Shown: one piece after another, positions 5,348-13,142 of the stretch
Position numbering within the stretch: the first letter of the stretch is position 1
Layout: the number at the start of each line of letters is the position of its first letter
Assembly: GCA_040263875.1 (NCBI GenBank)
Contig: JBDQJI010000003.1
Span: forward strand, 19,994-83,993
DNA: 64,000 nt
Origin: Alphaproteobacteria bacterium
GTDB taxonomy: Bacteria > Pseudomonadota > Alphaproteobacteria > Bin95
Direction of reading: 5' to 3'
Position numbers and translations under genes: made by a program
Notes under the pieces: model-generated
What the model saw: only the letters and a program-made list of their open reading frames with translations
Databases searched by the model: none
What the model was told of the DNA's origin: nothing

Positions 5348-6208
5348 ATGGCAGGGATATGTGAGATGCAGACGCTAAAATTTGCTCCGCCGAGGCTCAT
5401 CCCTTTTTCTGCAACTGCTGAGCATTTTCTCCACAATCGGTTCCATAAGGCCTGCGCTGGACTGATTGCGTCTGAACGACATTTGAACTGGATGCTGGCC
5501 CGAGCAATGCGAACGGCTGAGCCTGAATTTCGCGTGCCTTTGCCCTATGCCGTATCGGCTTTCGGGCCAAAACTTGACTTCACCGTCCAAGCGAATTCGA
5601 TCAACAAAATTCTTCGGGGATGGGTCCAAGGCACCGGCAAAATTGTGCGTGTAGATAATTGGTTCGTCGGTGCCCATGATTGGAGCAAGGTTCTGATCAA
5701 CACGGAAGATGATTCAATCGTCCAAGAAGCGCGAATGCTGATTGACGCAAATTTTCGCTTCGCCGAAATTGAAAGTTACGCAAATTACAGACAAAGACTT
5801 GAGGCTGGAGACGCGACCTGGCGCAATATCGGACGCCTTGATAGTATTGAAAGAATCGAAGATTATTTCAATCGCTTCAAAGCGTTATACCACTCGATTG
5901 AAAAACATGGCTTGCTCAGTCCAGATGAATTTTCCGATCAAGCTTCAGGACATGGTGAGGACCCTCCCCAACGCAGAATTGGAATCGCAATTGGTGCGGA
6001 CGGCACGCAATACCGCCTACCTGGCGGACAGCATCGATTTGCTATCGGACTTATATTGGGGTGTCAGATCCCGGTTCAACTTCGGTTGATCCATGTTAAC
6101 TACCTCAAAGCATTGGCAGACCCCGAGCAAACCTTGCCGGCCACGCTGATCTACAACGAAGTGCGGCAGCTTGCGGCGACGGGACGCGTCGGCGGAGGCG
6201 GCGGATAG
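5348..6208 (+). CDS. Hypothetical protein with a C-terminal ParB-N/sulfiredoxin-like motif, in a locally low-GC region
   Basis: IGIAIGADGTQYRLPGGQHRFAIGLILG fits the ParB/Srx-fold consensus (hydrophobic-x-V....DG.Y.L.dGHHR..A). This interval is visibly AT-richer than its flanks. The start codon is uncertain, with several in-frame Met. Confidence 0.45.
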   Translation: MAGICEMQTLKFAPPRLIPFSATAEHFLHNRFHKACAGLIASERHLNWMLARAMRTAEPEFRVPLPYAVSAFGPKLDFTVQANSINKILRGWVQGTGKIVRVDNWFVGAHDWSKVLINTEDDSIVQEARMLIDANFRFAEIESYANYRQRLEAGDATWRNIGRLDSIERIEDYFNRFKALYHSIEKHGLLSPDEFSDQASGHGEDPPQRRIGIAIGADGTQYRLPGGQHRFAIGLILGCQIPVQLRLIHVNYLKALADPEQTLPATLIYNEVRQLAATGRVGGGGG

Positions 6209-8020: not shown

Positions 8021-8563
8021 ATGTTTGATATGGACCGCTTCATCGATGATTGCGCCGCAGCTGTAAAAGCTGACCCCACGCACAAAACAGTCCGCCCAAT
8101 TGTGGAGCGTGTCGTCTCTGATCCGACCGCGTTGTTAAACACTATCGGCGAACCAGTAGCCGCAGGCGTCAACAAGATCTGCCACCGCCCGGACCTCACA
8201 ATTCTGAATTTAGTTTGGGGCAAGCGCATGACGCTGATGCCGCATAACCATAATATGTGGGCTGTGATCGGCATCTACACGGGCCGTGAAGACAACATTT
8301 TCTGGCGACGCTTGGACGAAGGCCCCTGCGGCCTGGAAGCCGCTGGCGCTAAAACGCTTGGTGTCGGCGATGTCGCTCCGCTGGGCGCAGACATCATTCA
8401 CTCCGTCACAAACCCGCTGGATAAGCTGACGGGTGCCATTCACGTTTATGGCGGTGATTTCTTCGCAGAACATCGGTCTGAATGGGAGCCAGAAAACCTG
8501 ACCGAACAGACCTATGATGTTGCGAAGAATATGGCGCTCTTTGAAGAAGCCAATCGTCGCTAA
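8021..8563 (+). CDS. Cupin (double-stranded beta-helix) metalloenzyme, cysteine-dioxygenase-like
   Basis: LNLVWGKRMTLMPHNHNMWAVIGIYTGREDNIFWRR has the layout of the cysteine-dioxygenase-type cupin family (VW.pgq.tpiHdH...w.v.G.l.G.E). A second cupin His lies further on (IHVYGG). It is 180 aa. Confidence 0.6.
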   Translation: MFDMDRFIDDCAAAVKADPTHKTVRPIVERVVSDPTALLNTIGEPVAAGVNKICHRPDLTILNLVWGKRMTLMPHNHNMWAVIGIYTGREDNIFWRRLDEGPCGLEAAGAKTLGVGDVAPLGADIIHSVTNPLDKLTGAIHVYGGDFFAEHRSEWEPENLTEQTYDVAKNMALFEEANRR

Positions 8564-8581: not shown

Positions 8582-9415
8582 ATGCAGGTAGAGGCTATTG
8601 CGGGCGCACTTGGTGCCGAGATCAAAGGCGTTGATCTAAGCAGTGAACTGTCGAACAGCGATGCCGCCGCTGTCCGGGATGCCTTCCTGGATCACAAGGT
8701 TATCTTTTTCCGGGACCAAAAACTAACGCCGAATGATCAAGTCCGTTTTGCCAGCCTTTTCGGCGAACCTGATATTTATCCCTTCATCGAAGGCCTACCT
8801 GATACGCCTGAGGTCATCGAAATTCTGAAAGCTCAAGGCGACGCCAAGAACTTTGGCGGCAGTTGGCATTCAGATACCTCCTACATGGAGCAACCTGCGC
8901 TCGGCACTGTGCTCTATGCGCTGGAAACGCCAAAGGCTGGTGGCGACACACTTTTCGCCAATGCGGCTGCCGCCTATGAAGCGTTATCTGACGGCATGAA
9001 GTCCATGCTTGGCGACCTGAAAGGCGTGAACTGCTCCGAACATGGCTATGCTGGCGGCCGGGCAGCGGCGATGGCGAAGCTGGATGGCATGAAAGAAACC
9101 GACCAAGCGGCGACAGGGTACGAATCCCGTCATCCAATTGTGCGCACACATCCAGAGACGGGCCGGAAATCACTCTACCTCAACCGCTCCCACACGGCCT
9201 CTTTCGATACGATGACGGAAGCTGAAAGCAAGCCGCTGATCGACTTCCTCTGTGACCATATCACCCGACCAGAATTCACCTGCCGCTTTCGCTGGACGCC
9301 CGGTGCAATTGCAGTTTGGGACAACAGAGCGACCCAGCATTTTGCTGTGAACGACTACCCAGGCAAGCGTCGCCGCATGCATCGTGTGACGATTAAGGGC
9401 GACACGCCCCGGTGA
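8582..9415 (+). CDS. TauD/TfdA-family Fe(II)/2-oxoglutarate-dependent dioxygenase, taurine-dioxygenase-like
   Basis: WHSDTSYMEQPALGTVLYALETPKAGGDTLFANAAAAYEALS carries the HxD...H facial triad and the TauD-family context. It sits 18 nt downstream of the cupin gene. Its TGA stop overlaps the GTG start of the next gene (GTGA). Confidence 0.85.
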   Translation: MQVEAIAGALGAEIKGVDLSSELSNSDAAAVRDAFLDHKVIFFRDQKLTPNDQVRFASLFGEPDIYPFIEGLPDTPEVIEILKAQGDAKNFGGSWHSDTSYMEQPALGTVLYALETPKAGGDTLFANAAAAYEALSDGMKSMLGDLKGVNCSEHGYAGGRAAAMAKLDGMKETDQAATGYESRHPIVRTHPETGRKSLYLNRSHTASFDTMTEAESKPLIDFLCDHITRPEFTCRFRWTPGAIAVWDNRATQHFAVNDYPGKRRRMHRVTIKGDTPR

Positions 9416-10212
9416 CGGCTAAACCAAGCCAGCAAGGCGTTGCCTCAACAGACCTCTCAAACCGCTCGCTGATTAGCATCCTCGCTGGCGCTTTCAGTGT
9501 TAGCATTTTCGCGATCATTATTACGGCGAGCCTATCAGGTATATGGGGCTTGCCCGGCGGACCGCTGCTTCAGGCTGCCGCTGCCATTGGCTCGGTTTGC
9601 CTAGTCGGATCGTTTGTCGCTGTGCTGGCAAAGCGGCGCGGGCGGCCGGGGAAAGCCGGATTTAGGTCTCACATCTGGCTCGCCAGCATCGGCACAGGGC
9701 TTGTCTTAGCCCACGGCGCTAGCGGGCTGCTAAAACCGCCAGCCACGCTGTTTGTGCTTCTGCTGCTGCTCATCGGCCTCGGTGTCTGGTCCAGGCTACA
9801 AGGTGCGCGGATGATGGCGCGGACTTTCGGTGAAAAGCGCGCGGGCTTCGAAAAACCGAATCCAGCGGTACGGGCACGGCTCGCCGCCCTCATTGAGCAG
9901 AAGCAGGCATTGCTGGCCAAGCTTGATCCGAGTGCGCATGAGGCTCTCTTCTCACCGCAATTCCGACATTGGTTAAGCGCCCCGATCCTAACACTCAGCT
10001 ATACGAAGCTTGCCGCAGAAGAAAGCCGCATTATCGGTGCTGCCGCCGGCTTACCGCAGATCCAGGCACGCTGGCGGCTTCTACATCGATTGGCAGCGCT
10101 GGCATTCGTTGGCGGGCTGCTGGCGCACATCATCATCGTTATGCTGTTCGCAGGATACGCTGCAGACGGCGGCGATATCTATTGGCTTCACTTCGCAGCA
10201 TGGGATTTTTGA
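9412..10212 (+). CDS. Integral membrane protein with about 5 transmembrane helices and two His-x13-His pairs, predicted to be a dihaem cytochrome b-type membrane anchor
   Basis: Hydrophobic helices contain HIWLASIGTGLVLAH and HRLAALAFVGGLLAH, with His at i and i+14 in two separate helices, as in bis-haem cytochrome b subunits (FdnI/NarI/HyaC-like). It is translationally coupled to tauD upstream and ends 5 nt before the Mo-enzyme gene. Confidence 0.5.
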   Translation: MTAKPSQQGVASTDLSNRSLISILAGAFSVSIFAIIITASLSGIWGLPGGPLLQAAAAIGSVCLVGSFVAVLAKRRGRPGKAGFRSHIWLASIGTGLVLAHGASGLLKPPATLFVLLLLLIGLGVWSRLQGARMMARTFGEKRAGFEKPNPAVRARLAALIEQKQALLAKLDPSAHEALFSPQFRHWLSAPILTLSYTKLAAEESRIIGAAAGLPQIQARWRLLHRLAALAFVGGLLAHIIIVMLFAGYAADGGDIYWLHFAAWDF

Positions 10213-10217
10213 GCGTC

Positions 10218-13142
10218 ATGTCACGCCTAGCCCTGATGATCGATCTGGAACGCTGCATTGGCTGTAAAAGCTGTGAGGCCGCCTGCAAAGCCGAGCATGG
10301 CCTCGGCCCTGGCGAACGGCGAAACCGCGTCGTCTGGCTTGGCGGCGACAATGGCCCAACCTTGGACTTCCTGAAGCTGGCCTGCCAGCACTGCGAGCGT
10401 CCAGCATGCCTCCGCGCCTGCCCGGTTGAACCTAAAGCCATCCGCAAAGACGCAGAAACCGGCATCGTATCGATCATTGAAGAAAGCTGTGTTGGTTGCG
10501 GTGAATGCGTCGCCGCCTGCCCATACGGCGCGATGGGCTATGACGCTGGCGGGCATCACGCGGTCAAATGTGACCTATGTCATGACCGACGGGCAGAGGG
10601 TGCAGCAACAACCGCATGTGCCAGCGTTTGCCCCGGCAAAGCGATTACGTTTGGCGAGCGCGACCCTATGTTGGCAGGCGCCGAAGCTGATGGCCGCACT
10701 GCCATCGACAACGATCCGTATCTTTTGGCACCAGCGACCATTTACCTAGATCGTATTATCCGCGACGCATCCGCCTTTGACGTTTTTGAGCAATCAACGC
10801 CAGCCGTATCTGATGACGGCGAGCCGGACCCTGAAACAGCAACCGCCTTTCCCTTCGGCCTGCCCCGTGAGGAGCGATTGGCCGATAGGATTGAGCCAGG
10901 CGGGTGCAATATCTGCTTCAATGCCTGCACGACCAACTTTCACTTCAAGGATGATAGGCTGGTCAAGGTAACCGGCAATGAATCTGACCCCATGCTGGAA
11001 GGCCGTGTCTGCCCGAAGTCTCAGTTCTCGCTGCAACTCTATAATTCCAAGGACCGGCTGACCCAGCCGCTAAAGCGCGTCGGTGAGCGCGGCGAGAATA
11101 AGTTCGAGCCAATTTCCTGGGAACAGGCGCTGGATGAGATCGCGGAAAAGCTTGGCGCGATCCGGGATGACTTTGGGCCAGAAGCCTTGGCGATATTCTC
11201 AGGTACGCGTACGGGCACTTTGACCAATAAGGGTTATATCCGCCTGTTCCGCCAACTTTGGGGCACGCCGAATTTTGAAACTACGGAGCCCTATTGCTCC
11301 TTCGGCAAGAACATCGCCTACAACATGGTTCAAGGCGCTGGCGGCAGTGGCAATAGCTATACTGAAGGCGACATGGGCTCGGCCGAGCTCTACGTCTATA
11401 TGGGCGACAATCAGGCGGAAACGCGCCCTGTCCACTTCGGCATGATCAATGACTGGCGGCTGATAAACCGCGCTAGATTGATCGCCATTGATCCACGTAT
11501 GACAGTCACAGCCTCCAAGGCGGATTGGCATTTGCCGATCCGGCCCGGCGGCGACATGGCCCTGTCCCTCGCCATCGCACATCACATATTTTCCGAGAAC
11601 CTCCACGACGCAAAGTTTTGCGAAGAATGGGTGCTTGGCTGGGAAGAATGGCGCGATTTCATTTTTGCGAGCGGGTATTCGCCAGAATGGGCAGCCCCGA
11701 TAACCGATCTTCCCGCTGAGGACATCAAGCGGCTGGCGGAAGAAATCGCCCGCGCCGATGGCTGCGTCATCTTCGGAAGCCGGGGCTTGAACCAGCACGT
11801 GAATTCGGTCCAATCCAACCGTGCGATCATGTTTGTAGCGGCCATTACGGGCAATTGGGGTCGACGGGGTGGTGCCTATTTCAACATGTCGGCATCTGTT
11901 CCTGCTGAAGCCAATGCGCCGGAGGGCAGGATCGCGCCGCTGAATAAGCCCCGCGTCCGCACCAGCCCCACGGGTTGGGTCGACGCCATGCGCACCAGCC
12001 AGCCCTACGCCCTAAAGGCACTCATTGCCTGCAACAATCCCATGTCACTCTGGCCCGACCAGACGGAGACGCGGGATGGATTGAACGCACTTGATCTTCT
12101 GGTCCACATCGACATCTTCCCGAATGAAACCAGCGCTTATGCCGACTACGTTCTGCCTGCCGCCACTGGCATCGAGAAAGGCGAGGTTGGCCGCGCCTGC
12201 GAAGATCGCCGCGTCGTGTGGATAGACCGCATGATCGAGCCGCCAGGTGTCGCCAAACCGGATGGATGGATTTGGATCGAGCTTGGAAAACGTTTTGGCT
12301 TCGATGATGTGCTGAAAGAGGAGTGGAAAGACTCAGCGAAGTTCTGGGATGAAGCCATGATTGATCATGTGCAGATGCGCGGCGTCACCCAAAAACGCCT
12401 GCATTCCAGGCCCTATCGCTGGGTCCGTTTCCCTGTCGCGACAGAGGAAGCCGAAGAAATCAATACGCTCTATCTGGAAGGCACGACTGCGCCCGGCAAA
12501 CCAGAAGGCCATCGTTTCCCTTCCCCCAGTGGCAAGCTTGAATTCTTCACGGAGGAAATGGATGCCAAGTTCAGAAGCTATGGCCTATCCGCCCTGCCGG
12601 AATTCTATAGCGAGGGCGAAAGCCTGTTCGATATGGCGCATCTGGAAATGCTGGACCCCGACTGGACTGAAGGCATTAAAAGCCCGTTCTTGAACGGTGC
12701 CGCCTATGCCTCCCGCGCACGTATTGTTGATGCCAGCGAGGCCCAGCCCGCCGCCAATCTCCGCGCCCAAGGCTATGACATGGAACTTGTCACTGGCCGC
12801 GCACCTGCCCCGCACTTCCATTCCTGGACGCATTATTCATGGCAAGCGCAGGAAATGTGGCCGGACTTATACGCGCAGATGCATCCCGCCACCGCCAAAC
12901 GCCTTGGGATTGATGATGGCGACCGCGTTACGGTCGAAACATCCCACGGTAAGGCAGACGCACGCGCCTGGATCACCAATGGCATCCGCGAACGCGCTAT
13001 CTTCATGCCCATCGGCTGGGGCGAACGGCAACCGTTCAACCCCTGGCGGCCAGTTAATGACCTAACCGACAAACATCAACGCTGCCCTATCTCAGAGCAA
13101 ACGAACTTGAAGTCTCTACTCTGCCGGGTAAGCGCGGCCTAG
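10218..13142 (+). CDS. Fusion protein: an N-terminal four-cluster [4Fe-4S] ferredoxin-type subunit (DmsB/FdnH/NarH-like) joined to a molybdopterin oxidoreductase catalytic subunit (MopB, Mo-bisPGD family). No Tat signal.
   Basis: The N-terminus has four Cys clusters: CIGCKSCEAAC, CQHCERPACLRACP, CVGCGECVAACP and CDLCHD...CASVCP. Then comes the MopB N-terminal cluster CNICFNAC...RVCPK and a candidate Mo-ligand Cys (TTEPYCSFGK), with the MopB body continuing to about 975 aa. The start MSRLALMIDLERC has no twin-arginine motif. Confidence 0.8.
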   Translation: MSRLALMIDLERCIGCKSCEAACKAEHGLGPGERRNRVVWLGGDNGPTLDFLKLACQHCERPACLRACPVEPKAIRKDAETGIVSIIEESCVGCGECVAACPYGAMGYDAGGHHAVKCDLCHDRRAEGAATTACASVCPGKAITFGERDPMLAGAEADGRTAIDNDPYLLAPATIYLDRIIRDASAFDVFEQSTPAVSDDGEPDPETATAFPFGLPREERLADRIEPGGCNICFNACTTNFHFKDDRLVKVTGNESDPMLEGRVCPKSQFSLQLYNSKDRLTQPLKRVGERGENKFEPISWEQALDEIAEKLGAIRDDFGPEALAIFSGTRTGTLTNKGYIRLFRQLWGTPNFETTEPYCSFGKNIAYNMVQGAGGSGNSYTEGDMGSAELYVYMGDNQAETRPVHFGMINDWRLINRARLIAIDPRMTVTASKADWHLPIRPGGDMALSLAIAHHIFSENLHDAKFCEEWVLGWEEWRDFIFASGYSPEWAAPITDLPAEDIKRLAEEIARADGCVIFGSRGLNQHVNSVQSNRAIMFVAAITGNWGRRGGAYFNMSASVPAEANAPEGRIAPLNKPRVRTSPTGWVDAMRTSQPYALKALIACNNPMSLWPDQTETRDGLNALDLLVHIDIFPNETSAYADYVLPAATGIEKGEVGRACEDRRVVWIDRMIEPPGVAKPDGWIWIELGKRFGFDDVLKEEWKDSAKFWDEAMIDHVQMRGVTQKRLHSRPYRWVRFPVATEEAEEINTLYLEGTTAPGKPEGHRFPSPSGKLEFFTEEMDAKFRSYGLSALPEFYSEGESLFDMAHLEMLDPDWTEGIKSPFLNGAAYASRARIVDASEAQPAANLRAQGYDMELVTGRAPAPHFHSWTHYSWQAQEMWPDLYAQMHPATAKRLGIDDGDRVTVETSHGKADARAWITNGIRERAIFMPIGWGERQPFNPWRPVNDLTDKHQRCPISEQTNLKSLLCRVSAA

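What the first reader, a model, noticed from the sequence alone, without database searches (positions are those of the whole stretch)
9412..10212. Candidate novel dihaem cytochrome b anchor (His-x13-His in two helices) with a long soluble insert
The protein has about five transmembrane helices. Two of them each carry a His pair spaced 14 residues apart (HIWLASIGTGLVLAH and HRLAALAFVGGLLAH), the classic bis-haem ligation geometry of FdnI/NarI/HyaC-type cytochromes b. A roughly 90-residue hydrophilic segment between TM4 and TM5 (EKRAGFEKPNPAVRARLAALIEQKQALLAKL...) could be the docking surface for the cytoplasmic Fe-S/Mo fusion protein. The start codon is a GTG overlapping the tauD stop, so the call rests on operon context plus the His geometry. 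I cannot assign it to a named family from sequence alone.
Basis: partly seen in the sequence, partly recalled or inferred. Interest (0 to 1): 0.55.

Follow-up and report, generated by a model that had tools for sequence, protein, structure and literature searches.

The report
Uncharacterised dihaem cytochrome b anchor
This gene encodes a membrane protein from an unnamed but widespread family that very probably holds two haem groups and wires a cytoplasmic iron-sulfur/molybdenum enzyme, most likely a sulfite-oxidising one, to the respiratory chain; no member has been studied experimentally.

Summary
Window 9412-10212 (+) is a real 266-aa gene with five transmembrane helices. TM3 and TM5 each carry His-x13-His, and a ~90-residue basic helical insert lies between TM4 and TM5.

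- **Conservation:** the four His are the most conserved residues in 137 full-length relatives (134-137 of 137).
- **Topology:** charge bias places the insert in the cytoplasm. Coevolution puts TM3 and TM5 parallel, with His87 level with His225 and His101 with His239.
- **Partner:** in 78 of 79 informative loci a fused four-cluster ferredoxin/Mo-bisPGD protein without a Tat signal follows directly. All 20 FeS cysteines and the Mo-ligand Cys are invariant.
- **Family status:** no Pfam, NCBIfam or PDB match. The only signal is sub-threshold similarity to DUF4405, a family shown to bind haem b.
- **Context:** TauD-type and thiol-dioxygenase genes recur nearby. This suggests a SoeABC-like cytoplasmic sulfite (or sulfinate) dehydrogenase whose NrfD-type anchor has been replaced by a cytochrome b.

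Haem binding, substrate and electron direction are untested. I rate it a new variant of a known kind, of moderate to high interest. A cultured host exists (Pseudohalocynthiibacter aestuariivivens RR4-35).

The parts
8021..8563 (+). First gene of the four-gene operon: a 180-aa cupin related to thiol dioxygenases (cysteine, 3-mercaptopropionate and mercaptosuccinate dioxygenases).
   Evidence: PDB sequence hits: 6xb9 3.3e-07, 4wvz 1.3e-06, 8vni 4e-05. No Pfam or NCBIfam hit. It lies directly upstream of the TauD-family gene in L001-L004, L007, L010, L011, L016 and L044.
8582..9415 (+). TauD/TfdA-family 2-oxoglutarate dioxygenase (277 aa). Its stop codon overlaps the cytochrome b start.
   Evidence: Pfam TauD 1.1e-67. 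NCBIfam taurine dioxygenase scores 253 bits, below the 313-bit cutoff. A TauD-family homologue (34-96% identity) lies within the fetched flanks (up to 10 kb) in about a third of related loci, directly upstream in about 24 of them and on both sides in L018 and L021.
9412..10212 (+). Predicted dihaem cytochrome b membrane subunit (266 aa, 5 TM, N-in/C-out).
9649..9717 (+). TM3 (residues 80-102) with His87 (9670-9672) and His101 (9712-9714). Gly94 lies midway between them.
   Evidence: Helix boundaries from the AF2 model. His87 in 137/137 and His101 in 136/137 sequences.
9832..10056 (+). Cytoplasmic helical insert (about residues 141-215). It is basic and carries invariant E177 and E204 and near-invariant K164, H186, W187 and P191. 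Proposed docking surface for the Fe-S domain.
   Evidence: pLDDT 92-96 over 150-200. Region 128-222 has on average 16.9 K/R against 7.7 D/E. Conservation. The docking role is inferred, not tested.
10057..10164 (+). TM5 (residues 216-251) with His225 (10084-10086) and His239 (10126-10128). Followed by the conserved periplasmic tail FAGY...YW(L/W)H.
   Evidence: This helix gives the sub-threshold DUF4405 match (residues 217-242).
10218..13142 (+). Fusion protein (974 aa): an N-terminal four-cluster ferredoxin (PsrB/DmsB-like, 16 Cys) joined to a Mo-bisPGD catalytic domain (PsrA/PhsA-like) with an FS0 cluster (Cys230, 233, 237, 265) and a Cys360 Mo ligand (11295-11297). There is no signal peptide.
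   Evidence: Pfam and NCBIfam. PDB: 2vpw_A 3.9e-65 and 2vpw_B 6e-22, with Cys360 aligned to PsrA Cys173. All 21 Cys are invariant in 42 homologues. The N-terminus starts MSRLALMIDLERCIGCKSC, with no twin-arginine motif.

Best explanation
The ORF encodes the membrane subunit of a two-gene respiratory module.

**Structure (inferred from sequence).** It is a five-helix protein, N-terminus in and C-terminus out. It binds two b-type haems by bis-His ligation between the parallel helices TM3 and TM5. One haem sits near the cytoplasmic face (His87 + His225) and one about 21 A away near the periplasmic face (His101 + His239). Invariant R128 and R222, and conserved K74/R75, at the cytoplasmic boundary would bind the propionates of the inner haem. 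Conserved Gly60, 94, 124 and 235 would make room for the porphyrins.

**Partner (inferred).** The ~90-residue cytoplasmic helical insert between TM4 and TM5 docks the product of the next gene, a cytoplasmic fusion of a four-[4Fe-4S] ferredoxin with a Cys-ligated Mo-bisPGD enzyme. The full wire is therefore Mo, FS0, FS1-FS4, inner haem, outer haem.

**Function (inferred, about 0.5).** The enzyme oxidises sulfite, or a related S(IV) compound such as a sulfinate. The substrate would be released in the cytoplasm by the co-operonic TauD-type and thiol dioxygenases. Electrons would cross the membrane to a quinone site at the periplasmic face, built from the conserved PGxPxxQ, PP and FAGY...YWWH motifs. 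This would be a SoeABC-like sulfite:quinone oxidoreductase in which the haem-free NrfD-type anchor SoeC is replaced by an unrelated dihaem cytochrome b, giving a NarGHI-like layout.

**What is shown:** gene reality, conservation, topology signals, synteny and the partner's cofactor motifs.
**What is inferred:** haem binding, docking, substrate, direction of electron flow and the quinone site.
For: 1. **A conserved family.** The window protein has 38 close clusters. There are 253 representatives at 50% identity in 1.8 billion proteins, and relatives in 242 species genomes.
2. **The four His dominate conservation.** In 38 sequences down to 24% identity the invariant residues are H87, H101, G124, R128, E177, E204, R222 and H225, with H239 in 37 of 38. 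In 137 sequences the four His are present in 134-137.
3. **The His lie inside helices.** AF2 (pLDDT 82) places both pairs within helices 80-102 and 216-251.
4. **Topology.** Net charge is +3.6 for loop 2-3 and +9.2 for the insert, and about 0 or negative elsewhere. The top coevolving inter-helix pairs lie at matching membrane depth (mean 7.0 A against 13.4 A for all pairs; none of 5,000 random draws was as low). TM3-TM5 pairs 83-226 and 90-233 give a parallel register of +143, close to the +138 that pairs H87 with H225 and H101 with H239.
5. **Remote similarity to haem-binding families.** 27 of 38 members hit Pfam DUF4405 on the His-bearing helix (best 27.8 bits against a cutoff of 26.7). A few hit Ni_hydr_CYTB and Ferric_reduct. 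Purified DUF4405 binds haem b (PMC11334425).
7. **Synteny.** The Fe-S/Mo fusion gene follows directly in 78 of 79 informative loci, from Alpha-, Beta- and Gammaproteobacteria, Nitrospinota and Tectomicrobia. In L081 the pair sits alone between recA and cinA. No other membrane-anchor gene recurs next to the pair in the neighbour clustering.
8. **The partner has a complete electron wire and no export signal**.
9. **Sulfur context.** TauD homologues lie within the flanks in about a third of loci. Thiol-dioxygenase-like cupins occur in the window and elsewhere. A 'sulfate exporter family transporter' lies about 5 kb upstream of the pair on the P. aestuariivivens plasmid. The nearest characterised Mo relatives are the sulfur enzymes PsrA and PhsA.
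Against: - No experiment shows haem binding.
- The window protein itself scores only 14.5 bits against DUF4405. Profile-to-sequence hhalign against E. coli MsrQ, YodB, FdnI and NarI gives probabilities below 1%.
- Model coordinates could not be inspected, so His-His distances are not measured.
- The coevolution analysis rests on about 103 effective sequences and is noisy.
- Substrate: about two thirds of loci lack TauD. The Nitrospinota-type loci show only lineage-specific neighbours. The Mo domain is only 27-30% identical to any characterised enzyme, and no SoeA sequence was available for comparison.
- Energetics: sending electrons outward to a periplasmic-side quinone site dissipates proton-motive force. 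This layout is normally used by quinol-oxidising reductases such as NarGHI.
Confidence: 0.7

Rival explanations
1. Same dihaem anchor, opposite direction of electron flow. The module would be a NarGHI-like quinol-oxidising reductase. Quinol is oxidised at the periplasmic face, and electrons cross the membrane inward through the two haems to reduce a cytoplasmic S- or N-oxide or another oxyanion. This would conserve energy as a redox loop.
For: The layout matches NarGHI, a cytoplasmic catalytic module on a transmembrane dihaem b, according to established knowledge. The nearest characterised Mo relatives, PsrA and PhsA, are reductases. Many conserved residues lie at the periplasmic face.
Against: The operon partners TauD and the thiol dioxygenase need O2 and generate sulfite or sulfinates. 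The hosts appear to be aerobes: marine Alphaproteobacteria and Nitrospinota. No candidate cytoplasmic oxidant is suggested by the gene context.
Confidence: 0.2
2. The Mo enzyme is a sulfinate dehydrogenase, for example hypotaurine to taurine. It would link the thiol dioxygenase (thiol to sulfinate) to TauD (sulfonate to sulfite). The cytochrome b would pass the two electrons to the respiratory chain.
For: The gene order is thiol dioxygenase-like, TauD, cytochrome b, Fe-S/Mo, in the window and in L001-L004, L007, L010, L016 and L044. Oxidation of a sulfinate to a sulfonate is an oxygen-atom transfer of the same type as sulfite to sulfate. From my own knowledge, EC 1.8.1.3 hypotaurine dehydrogenase was described as a molybdohaemoprotein and has no assigned bacterial gene. 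A search of the paper library found nothing relevant for bacteria.
Against: Most loci have the two-gene module without either dioxygenase. The sulfite released by TauD would still need an oxidase.
Confidence: 0.15
3. The protein is a haem-free membrane tether or quinone-binding subunit. Its conserved His would bind something else (a metal ion or a quinone head group) or serve a structural role.
For: No experimental haem data exist. Many Mo-enzyme anchors (NrfD, PsrC, DmsC, SoeC) are haem-free (PMC8076601). The family has no significant match to any cytochrome family model.
Against: Four near-invariant His at i/i+14 on two parallel helices, at matching depths, with conserved Gly and boundary Arg, is the classical dihaem signature. 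The only recurrent weak hits are to haem b families.
Confidence: 0.08
4. The cytochrome b does not deliver electrons to quinone. It passes them across the membrane to a periplasmic acceptor (a cytochrome c or another extracytosolic redox protein), as MsrQ and DUF4405-type cytochromes are proposed to do.
For: The only sequence similarity is to the DUF4405/MsrQ/Ferric_reduct group, whose members shuttle electrons across the membrane to extracytosolic partners. The periplasmic C-terminal tail is conserved.
Against: No conserved periplasmic partner gene lies next to the module in any lineage.
Confidence: 0.15

Closest known systems
DUF4405 (PF14358) / MsrQ (Ferric_reduct) / PepSY-like membrane cytochromes b
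   Same: Four central His form two bis-His haem b sites stacked across the membrane. The His-bearing helices give the only recurrent sequence similarity (27 of 38 members hit DUF4405 weakly). His pairs on TM3 and TM5 with an N-in topology match the ferric-reductase-domain layout (established knowledge).
   Different: There are five helices rather than six. A ~90-residue cytoplasmic insert lies between TM4 and TM5. Scores are below the Pfam cutoff in 37 of 38 members. The partner is a cytoplasmic Fe-S/Mo-bisPGD enzyme, not a periplasmic Mo enzyme (MsrP) or a flavinylated extracytosolic protein (PMC11334425).
NarI of respiratory nitrate reductase NarGHI
   Same: It works like this: a five-TM dihaem cytochrome b that anchors a cytoplasm-facing Mo-bisPGD subunit plus a four-cluster Fe-S subunit, and carries electrons across the membrane.
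   Different: No sequence similarity (no Pfam hit to the NarI family; hhalign probability 0.24%). The topology is opposite (NarI is N-out). NarI's His spacings are 9 and 17 residues, on TM2 and TM5. The catalytic and Fe-S subunits are fused here, and the Mo ligand is Cys rather than Asp.
SoeABC sulfite:quinone oxidoreductase
   Same: A cytoplasm-facing Mo-bisPGD + FS0 subunit and a four-[4Fe-4S] subunit without Tat signals, attached to the membrane (PMC8076601). The context is organosulfonate-derived sulfite.
   Different: SoeC is a haem-free 8-TM NrfD-type protein, whereas here the anchor is a 5-TM predicted dihaem cytochrome b. SoeA and SoeB are separate proteins, whereas here they are fused in B-A order. 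Orthology of the Mo domain to SoeA was not tested because no SoeA sequence was available.
Polysulfide/thiosulfate reductases PsrABC and PhsABC
   Same: They are the best structural and sequence relatives of the fusion protein: 2vpw_A 3.9e-65 and 2vpw_B 6e-22, with a Cys Mo ligand aligned to PsrA Cys173. PhsA is 27-28% identical.
   Different: Psr and Phs are periplasmic, Tat-exported three-subunit reductases. PsrC is an NrfD-type anchor.
Cytochrome b of bc1/b6f complexes (helices B and D)
   Same: The ligand pattern is identical: His-x13-His on each of two parallel helices separated by one helix, with conserved Gly on neighbouring helices (established knowledge; pattern seen).
   Different: No detectable homology. 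The bundle is inverted relative to the membrane. There are no Qo/Qi architecture, Rieske or cytochrome c1 partners.
FdnI / HyaC / CybB (PF01292, prokaryotic cytochrome b561)
   Different: In FdnI the other two ligands come from TM1 and TM2. PF01292 hits appear in only 4 of 38 members, with a best E-value of 0.0022 and all below the cutoff. The FdnGH partners are periplasmic.

Membership tests
Pfam DUF4405 (PF14358) | Score at or above the gathering cutoff (26.7 bits) | tested here: not met
   The window protein scores 14.5 bits, E 0.051. 27 of 38 relatives hit at E<=1, but only P0074 reaches 27.8 bits.
Pfam DUF4405 (PF14358) | Six-TM core with four central haem-ligating His (PMC11334425) | tested here: inconclusive
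   Four central His are present. However, there are five helices plus a large insert.
Pfam DUF4405 (PF14358) | Binds haem b | not testable with these tools
   Needs a pyridine haemochrome assay on purified protein.
Prokaryotic cytochrome b561: FdnI/HyaC/CybB (PF01292) | Profile match above the cutoff (30.1 bits) | tested here: not met
   The window protein has no hit. 4 of 38 relatives hit weakly, with a best E of 0.0022. hhalign against FdnI gives 0.22% and against YodB 0.14%.
Prokaryotic cytochrome b561: FdnI/HyaC/CybB (PF01292) | Four TM helices with haem ligands on TM1, TM2 and two on TM4 | tested here: not met
   There are five TM helices, with two ligands each on TM3 and TM5.
NarI (nitrate reductase gamma, PF02665) | Profile or sequence similarity | tested here: not met
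   No Pfam hit for the window protein at E<=1, and none among the 25 families most often hit by the 38 members. hhalign probability is 0.24%.
NarI (nitrate reductase gamma, PF02665) | Five-TM dihaem b anchoring a cytoplasmic Mo/Fe-S module | tested here: inconclusive
   The five TM helices and the cytoplasmic partner are met. Haem content is not testable. Topology and ligand spacing differ.
MsrQ / ferric reductase domain (PF01794) | Profile match above the cutoff (28 bits) | tested here: not met
   3 of 38 relatives hit, with a best E of 0.02 and 15.4 bits. hhalign against E. coli MsrQ gives 0.06%.
MsrQ / ferric reductase domain (PF01794) | His pairs on TM3 and TM5, N-terminus cytoplasmic | tested here: met
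   This is a pattern-level resemblance only.
NrfD/PsrC/SoeC-type anchors (PF03916) | 8-10 TM helices in two four-helix repeats, no haem | tested here: not met
   There are five TM helices and no Pfam hit. Family features are taken from PMC8076601.
Complex iron-sulfur molybdoenzyme (CISM) architecture | Mo-bisPGD catalytic unit with an FS0 cluster | tested here: met
   Pfam Molybdopterin, Molydop_binding and Molybdop_Fe4S4. Cys230/233/237/265 and Cys360 are invariant.
Complex iron-sulfur molybdoenzyme (CISM) architecture | Four-cluster [4Fe-4S] electron-transfer unit | tested here: met
   16 Cys in four CxxCxxCxxxC-type motifs are invariant in 42 sequences. Fer4_11 1.8e-21 and PsrB 6e-22. Here the unit is fused to the catalytic unit.
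Complex iron-sulfur molybdoenzyme (CISM) architecture | Dedicated membrane anchor encoded in the operon | tested here: met
   The cytochrome b gene lies directly upstream in 78 of 79 informative loci. Physical association is not testable here.
SoeABC sulfite dehydrogenase | Catalytic subunits face the cytoplasm (no Tat signal) | tested here: met
   The N-terminus starts at the first ferredoxin motif, with no RR motif.
SoeABC sulfite dehydrogenase | NrfD-type SoeC anchor; separate SoeA and SoeB | tested here: not met
   The anchor is unrelated to NrfD, and A and B are fused.
SoeABC sulfite dehydrogenase | Mo subunit orthologous to SoeA; sulfite:quinone activity | not tested
   No SoeA sequence was obtainable from the collections searched. 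Activity needs biochemistry.

The most novel reading that the evidence does not exclude
The two-gene module (a new cytochrome b family plus a fused Fe-S/Mo-bisPGD protein) is a previously unrecognised, SoeABC-independent route by which abundant marine Alphaproteobacteria (Rhodospirillales, SAR116-type and others), Burkholderiales, Nitrospinota and Tectomicrobia oxidise cytoplasmic sulfite, or sulfinates such as hypotaurine, derived from organosulfur compounds. Electrons would be fed into respiration through a transmembrane dihaem wire of a fold family not represented among solved structures.
Probability: 0.4. Interest if true: 0.72.

Novelty: new variant of a known kind. Interest (0 to 1): 0.6.

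Why it matters
Membrane-bound molybdoenzymes are built from a small set of known anchor types: NrfD/DmsC, NarI, FdnI and c-type NapC/TorC. A fifth, unrelated dihaem anchor, paired with a fused B-A catalytic protein, would extend that catalogue. It would also show modular replacement of a haem-free anchor by a cytochrome.

The family occurs in at least 242 species-level genomes, nearly all uncultured marine, soil or groundwater lineages. Everywhere it is annotated as 'hypothetical protein' next to a 'molybdopterin-dependent oxidoreductase'. Metabolic reconstructions therefore miss it at present.

If the substrate is sulfite or a sulfinate, the module fills a gap in the marine organosulfur cycle: the fate of sulfite from taurine-type dioxygenases in organisms without SoeABC or SorAB. 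It would also give a candidate gene for bacterial sulfinate oxidation.

A cultured plasmid-borne copy (Pseudohalocynthiibacter aestuariivivens RR4-35) makes the question directly testable.

Tried and rejected
- **Curated family assignment.** Pfam and NCBIfam give nothing above cutoff. A PDB sequence search with the family profile returns only a spurious ATP synthase subunit e match at E 1.3.
- **Remote homologues outside the family.** An exhaustive profile search found a self-contained family. The oddities were artefacts: P0160 is a tandem-repeat translation, and P0138 and P0155 are chimeric or frameshifted.
- **hhalign against single E. coli MsrQ, YodB, FdnI and NarI sequences.** All probabilities are below 1%. 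Single-sequence templates make this a weak test.
- **A third subunit in the longer intergenic gaps.** L007, L010 and L016 carry an unrelated Ogt-like methyltransferase gene. Nitrospinota-type loci carry repeat-rich non-coding spacers.
- **Guilt by association outside TauD.** Recurrent neighbours in the Nitrospinota-type loci (hydantoinase, GreA, aminotransferase, cysteine desulfurase, CysE) look like lineage synteny, not function.
- **Finding SoeA for a direct comparison.** Two plasmid tblastn searches returned PhsA, nitrate reductases, FdhF and stand-alone relatives, but no recognisable soeABC.
- **Literature.** No paper in the library describes this module. The Nitrospinota genome papers mention only SorAB and SoeABC.
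- **RNA and regulatory elements.** There is no riboswitch in the window, and promoter and terminator scans are at chance level.
- **Not attempted.** Co-folding of the two proteins was not tried, because the structure tool takes one chain and returns no coordinates or interface scores.
Full report
**Observation.** The window has an ORF at 9412-10212 (+) of 266 codons. Its GTG start overlaps the TGA of the upstream TauD-family gene as GTGA. No other canonical start codon lies upstream of the conserved N-terminal DLxNR motif, so this start is the only one that keeps TM1.

They place His at residues 87, 101, 225 and 239, each pair 14 apart. Kyte-Doolittle analysis and an AlphaFold2 model built on 32 homologues (mean pLDDT 82, pTM 0.73) give five long helices at 17-40, 51-75, 80-102, 110-140 and 216-251. 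Between the last two lies a confidently modelled helical segment, with pLDDT 92-96 over residues 150-200. Both His pairs lie inside helices (TM3 and TM5).

**A real, conserved and unnamed family.** The word-indexed search of 5.8 billion proteins returned 38 clusters, all unnamed or 'hypothetical' and none with a Pfam domain. An exhaustive profile search of 1.8 billion representatives returned 253 proteins at E<=1e-3. These form a self-contained family of 240-290-residue proteins plus fragments. A scan of one genome per species found relatives in 242 genomes. The best 80 are all MAGs, from Alphaproteobacteria (Rhodospirillaceae, Thalassobaculaceae, Puniceispirillum, Hyphomicrobiaceae, Acetobacterales), Burkholderiales, Gammaproteobacteria, Nitrospinota and Tectomicrobia.

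The window protein has no hit above cutoff in Pfam or NCBIfam. The family profile has no PDB sequence match.

**Conservation singles out the four His.** In a 38-sequence alignment reaching 24% identity, the only invariant residues are H87, H101, G124, R128, E177, E204, R222 and H225. H239 is present in 37 of 38, with Gln in P0134. In 137 full-length members the counts are 137, 136, 136 and 134. Conserved Gly residues (49, 60, 94, 124, 235) and boundary basic residues (K74/R75, R128, R222) accompany them.

**Topology.** Averaged over the family, the TM2-TM3 loop carries 4.2 K/R (net +3.6) and the region 128-222 carries 16.9 K/R (net +9.2). The TM1-TM2 loop, the TM3-TM4 loop and the C-terminal tail are neutral or acidic. 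By the positive-inside rule the protein is N-in/C-out, and the insert is cytoplasmic.

I ran a mean-field direct-coupling analysis on the 137 sequences (about 103 effective sequences, so it is noisy).
- The strongest inter-helix couplings join residues at matching membrane depth under this topology. The mean depth difference is 7.0 A for the top 20 pairs, against 13.4 A for all pairs. None of 5,000 random draws was as low.
- TM3-TM5 couplings 83-226 and 90-233 indicate parallel helices in a register of about +143. This puts H87 level with H225 and H101 level with H239, both offset by +138.

Two bis-His sites 14 residues (about 21 A) apart on two parallel helices is the classical transmembrane dihaem arrangement.

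**Relation to known cytochromes.** I scanned each of the 38 members against Pfam.
- 27 hit DUF4405 at E<=1, always on a His-bearing helix. This is usually TM5, and both TM3 and TM5 in P0072.
- Only one member (P0074, 27.8 bits) exceeds the 26.7-bit cutoff.
- A few members hit Ni_hydr_CYTB (4), Ferric_reduct (3) and DUF4079 (5) weakly.

DUF4405 was recently shown, by purification and pyridine haemochrome assay, to bind haem b. It was modelled as a six-TM protein with four central His, like MsrQ and PepSY-like cytochromes (PMC11334425).

I conclude that the family is at most a very remote relative of the DUF4405/MsrQ group and is not a member of any curated family. Those proteins distribute their ligands differently. 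The His-x13-His-on-two-helices pattern is that of cytochrome b helices B and D, and of ferric-reductase-type domains (established knowledge).

**The partner.** Five bases downstream starts a 974-residue protein (10218-13142).
- Residues 1-150 match four-cluster ferredoxins (Fer4_11 1.8e-21; PsrB 2vpw_B 6e-22).
- Residues 220-974 match Mo-bisPGD enzymes. The best match is Thermus polysulfide reductase PsrA (2vpw_A 3.9e-65), and Cys360 aligns to the PsrA Mo ligand Cys173.
- All 16 ferredoxin Cys, the four FS0 Cys and Cys360 are invariant in 42 homologues.
- The N-terminus begins directly at the first cluster motif, with no twin-arginine signal. The enzyme is therefore cytoplasmic, on the same side as the insert of the membrane protein.

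About 1,000 homologues exist, all annotated generically. The nearest characterised relatives are PhsA and PsrA, at only 27-30% identity.

**Synteny.** In 78 of 79 informative loci the fusion gene directly follows the cytochrome b gene. L062 is truncated. L011 has an ogt-like gene and a GST-like ORF instead. In L081 the pair stands alone between recA/recX and cinA. No NrfD-, DmsC- or NarI-type gene recurs next to the pair in the neighbour clustering. The fusion protein is more conserved (57-98% identity) than the membrane protein (36-92%). This is the pattern expected of a catalytic unit and its dedicated anchor.

**Function of the module.** The window operon has four tightly spaced genes.
- A cupin related to cysteine, 3-mercaptopropionate and mercaptosuccinate dioxygenases (PDB 6xb9 3.3e-07).
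- A TauD-family dioxygenase.
- The cytochrome b.
- The fusion protein.

Flanking genes are unrelated. TauD homologues of 34-96% identity lie within the flanks in about a third of the 80 loci, across several alphaproteobacterial lineages. About 24 are directly upstream, and L018 and L021 have one on each side. Rhodospirillaceae loci add a second TauD, a BisC-like Mo enzyme, a protein I judged ComA-like from its sequence, and another thiol-dioxygenase-like cupin.

A plasmid of the cultured Pseudohalocynthiibacter aestuariivivens RR4-35 carries the pair. The membrane protein has both H-x13-H motifs, and the fusion protein is 53% identical to the window's. Upstream on the same plasmid lie a 'sulfate exporter family transporter' (about 5 kb away), a betaine-aldehyde dehydrogenase, a Rieske protein and an amidohydrolase.

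These O2-dependent enzymes release sulfite or form sulfinates in the cytoplasm. The Mo domain belongs to the sulfur-oxyanion neighbourhood of the family. The known enzyme for cytoplasmic sulfite oxidation, SoeABC, has the same cofactor set but a haem-free NrfD-type anchor (PMC8076601).

My best reading is a SoeABC-like sulfite (or sulfinate) dehydrogenase with a new dihaem anchor. I put the substrate assignment at about 0.5. Two thirds of loci lack these neighbours, and no SoeA sequence was available for a phylogenetic test.

**Mechanism and its uncertainties.**
- Shown: the cofactor-binding motifs of the partner, the conserved His geometry, the sidedness signals and the synteny.
- Inferred: two haems b (H87/H225 inner, H101/H239 outer); docking through the insert; electron flow Mo, FS0, FS1-4, inner haem, outer haem; and a quinone site at the periplasmic face, where PGxPxxQ, PP(109-110), FAGY and YW(L/W)H are conserved.

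For a dehydrogenase this flow runs against the membrane potential, as in dihaem succinate:menaquinone reductases. The low potential of the sulfite/sulfate couple can afford that. The same layout would conserve energy if the enzyme were a quinol-dependent reductase like NarGHI, and this is the main rival. A transmembrane shuttle to a periplasmic acceptor, as in MsrQ, and a haem-free anchor are less likely rivals.

**Novelty and verdict.** No paper in the searchable library describes the module. The mechanism class, a cytochrome b anchor for a complex iron-sulfur molybdoenzyme, is known. The anchor family, the B-A fusion and their pairing are not. I rate it a new variant of a known kind, with interest 0.6. 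Its interpretation is supported, with the correction on which cytochromes share the ligand geometry.

Noticed in passing
window 8021-8563 (+): A 180-aa cupin with no Pfam or NCBIfam hit. It is related by sequence to solved cysteine, 3-mercaptopropionate and mercaptosuccinate dioxygenases (E 3e-07 to 4e-05). It is the first gene of the operon, and its thiol substrate is unknown.
   Followed up: partly
L007 2551-3168; L010 10760-11412; L016 10790-11359; L011 9248-9800: An Ogt-like O6-alkylguanine-DNA alkyltransferase gene (PCHRV motif) is inserted between the cytochrome b gene and the Fe-S/Mo gene in one alphaproteobacterial sub-lineage. In L011 the Fe-S/Mo gene is then missing, and a GST-like ORF follows.
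   Followed up: partly
L082 (NZ_CP049042.1 20425-24170, plasmid pRR4-35_5 of Pseudohalocynthiibacter aestuariivivens RR4-35): This is the only copy found in a cultured strain. It is plasmid-borne. Its neighbours are a sulfate exporter family transporter, betaine-aldehyde dehydrogenase, a small Rieske protein, an amidohydrolase, a LysR regulator and an FNR-like oxidoreductase. An amidohydrolase + Rieske pair also follows the module in L018. This hints at a catabolic pathway for an N-methylated sulfonate.
   Followed up: partly
L057 1-17515 (also L055, L058, L061, L064, L066, L069, L070): In Rhodospirillaceae MAGs the module sits in a larger island. The island has two TauD paralogues, a 792-aa BisC/TorA-like cytoplasmic Mo enzyme, a phosphosulfolactate-synthase-like protein, a family III CoA-transferase, GntR, LysR and IclR regulators, and a second thiol-dioxygenase-like cupin. 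These assignments are by eye from the sequences, not from Pfam.
   Followed up: no
L087 4809-7334 (Streptomyces sp. NBC_01708 plasmid); L086 4860-7376 (Nostoc sp. C052 plasmid): These are the closest non-fused relatives of the Mo domain in plasmids (30-32% identity, about 840 aa, stand-alone). The Streptomyces copy lies inside an arsenic-resistance island (arsC, ACR3, arsO, ArsR, trxAB). Its function is unknown.
   Followed up: no
L028, L030, L031, L039, L042, L047, L059, L071 (spacer between the two genes): Nitrospinota-type loci have a 250-440 nt spacer between the cytochrome b and Fe-S/Mo genes. No conserved ORF is present, but similar sequence recurs across loci: translations repeatedly give PPYPPLSGG-like strings. 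This suggests a repetitive intergenic element.
   Followed up: no
P0134 (family member): One divergent member has Gln in place of the fourth His (position 239), while its close relatives P0122 and P0133 keep His. This sub-group also lacks the conserved C-terminal FAGY...YWWH tail.
   Followed up: no
window 5348-6208 (+): A 286-aa ORF between a CMD-family gene and the haem A synthase (CtaA/COX15) gene has no Pfam hit.
   Followed up: no
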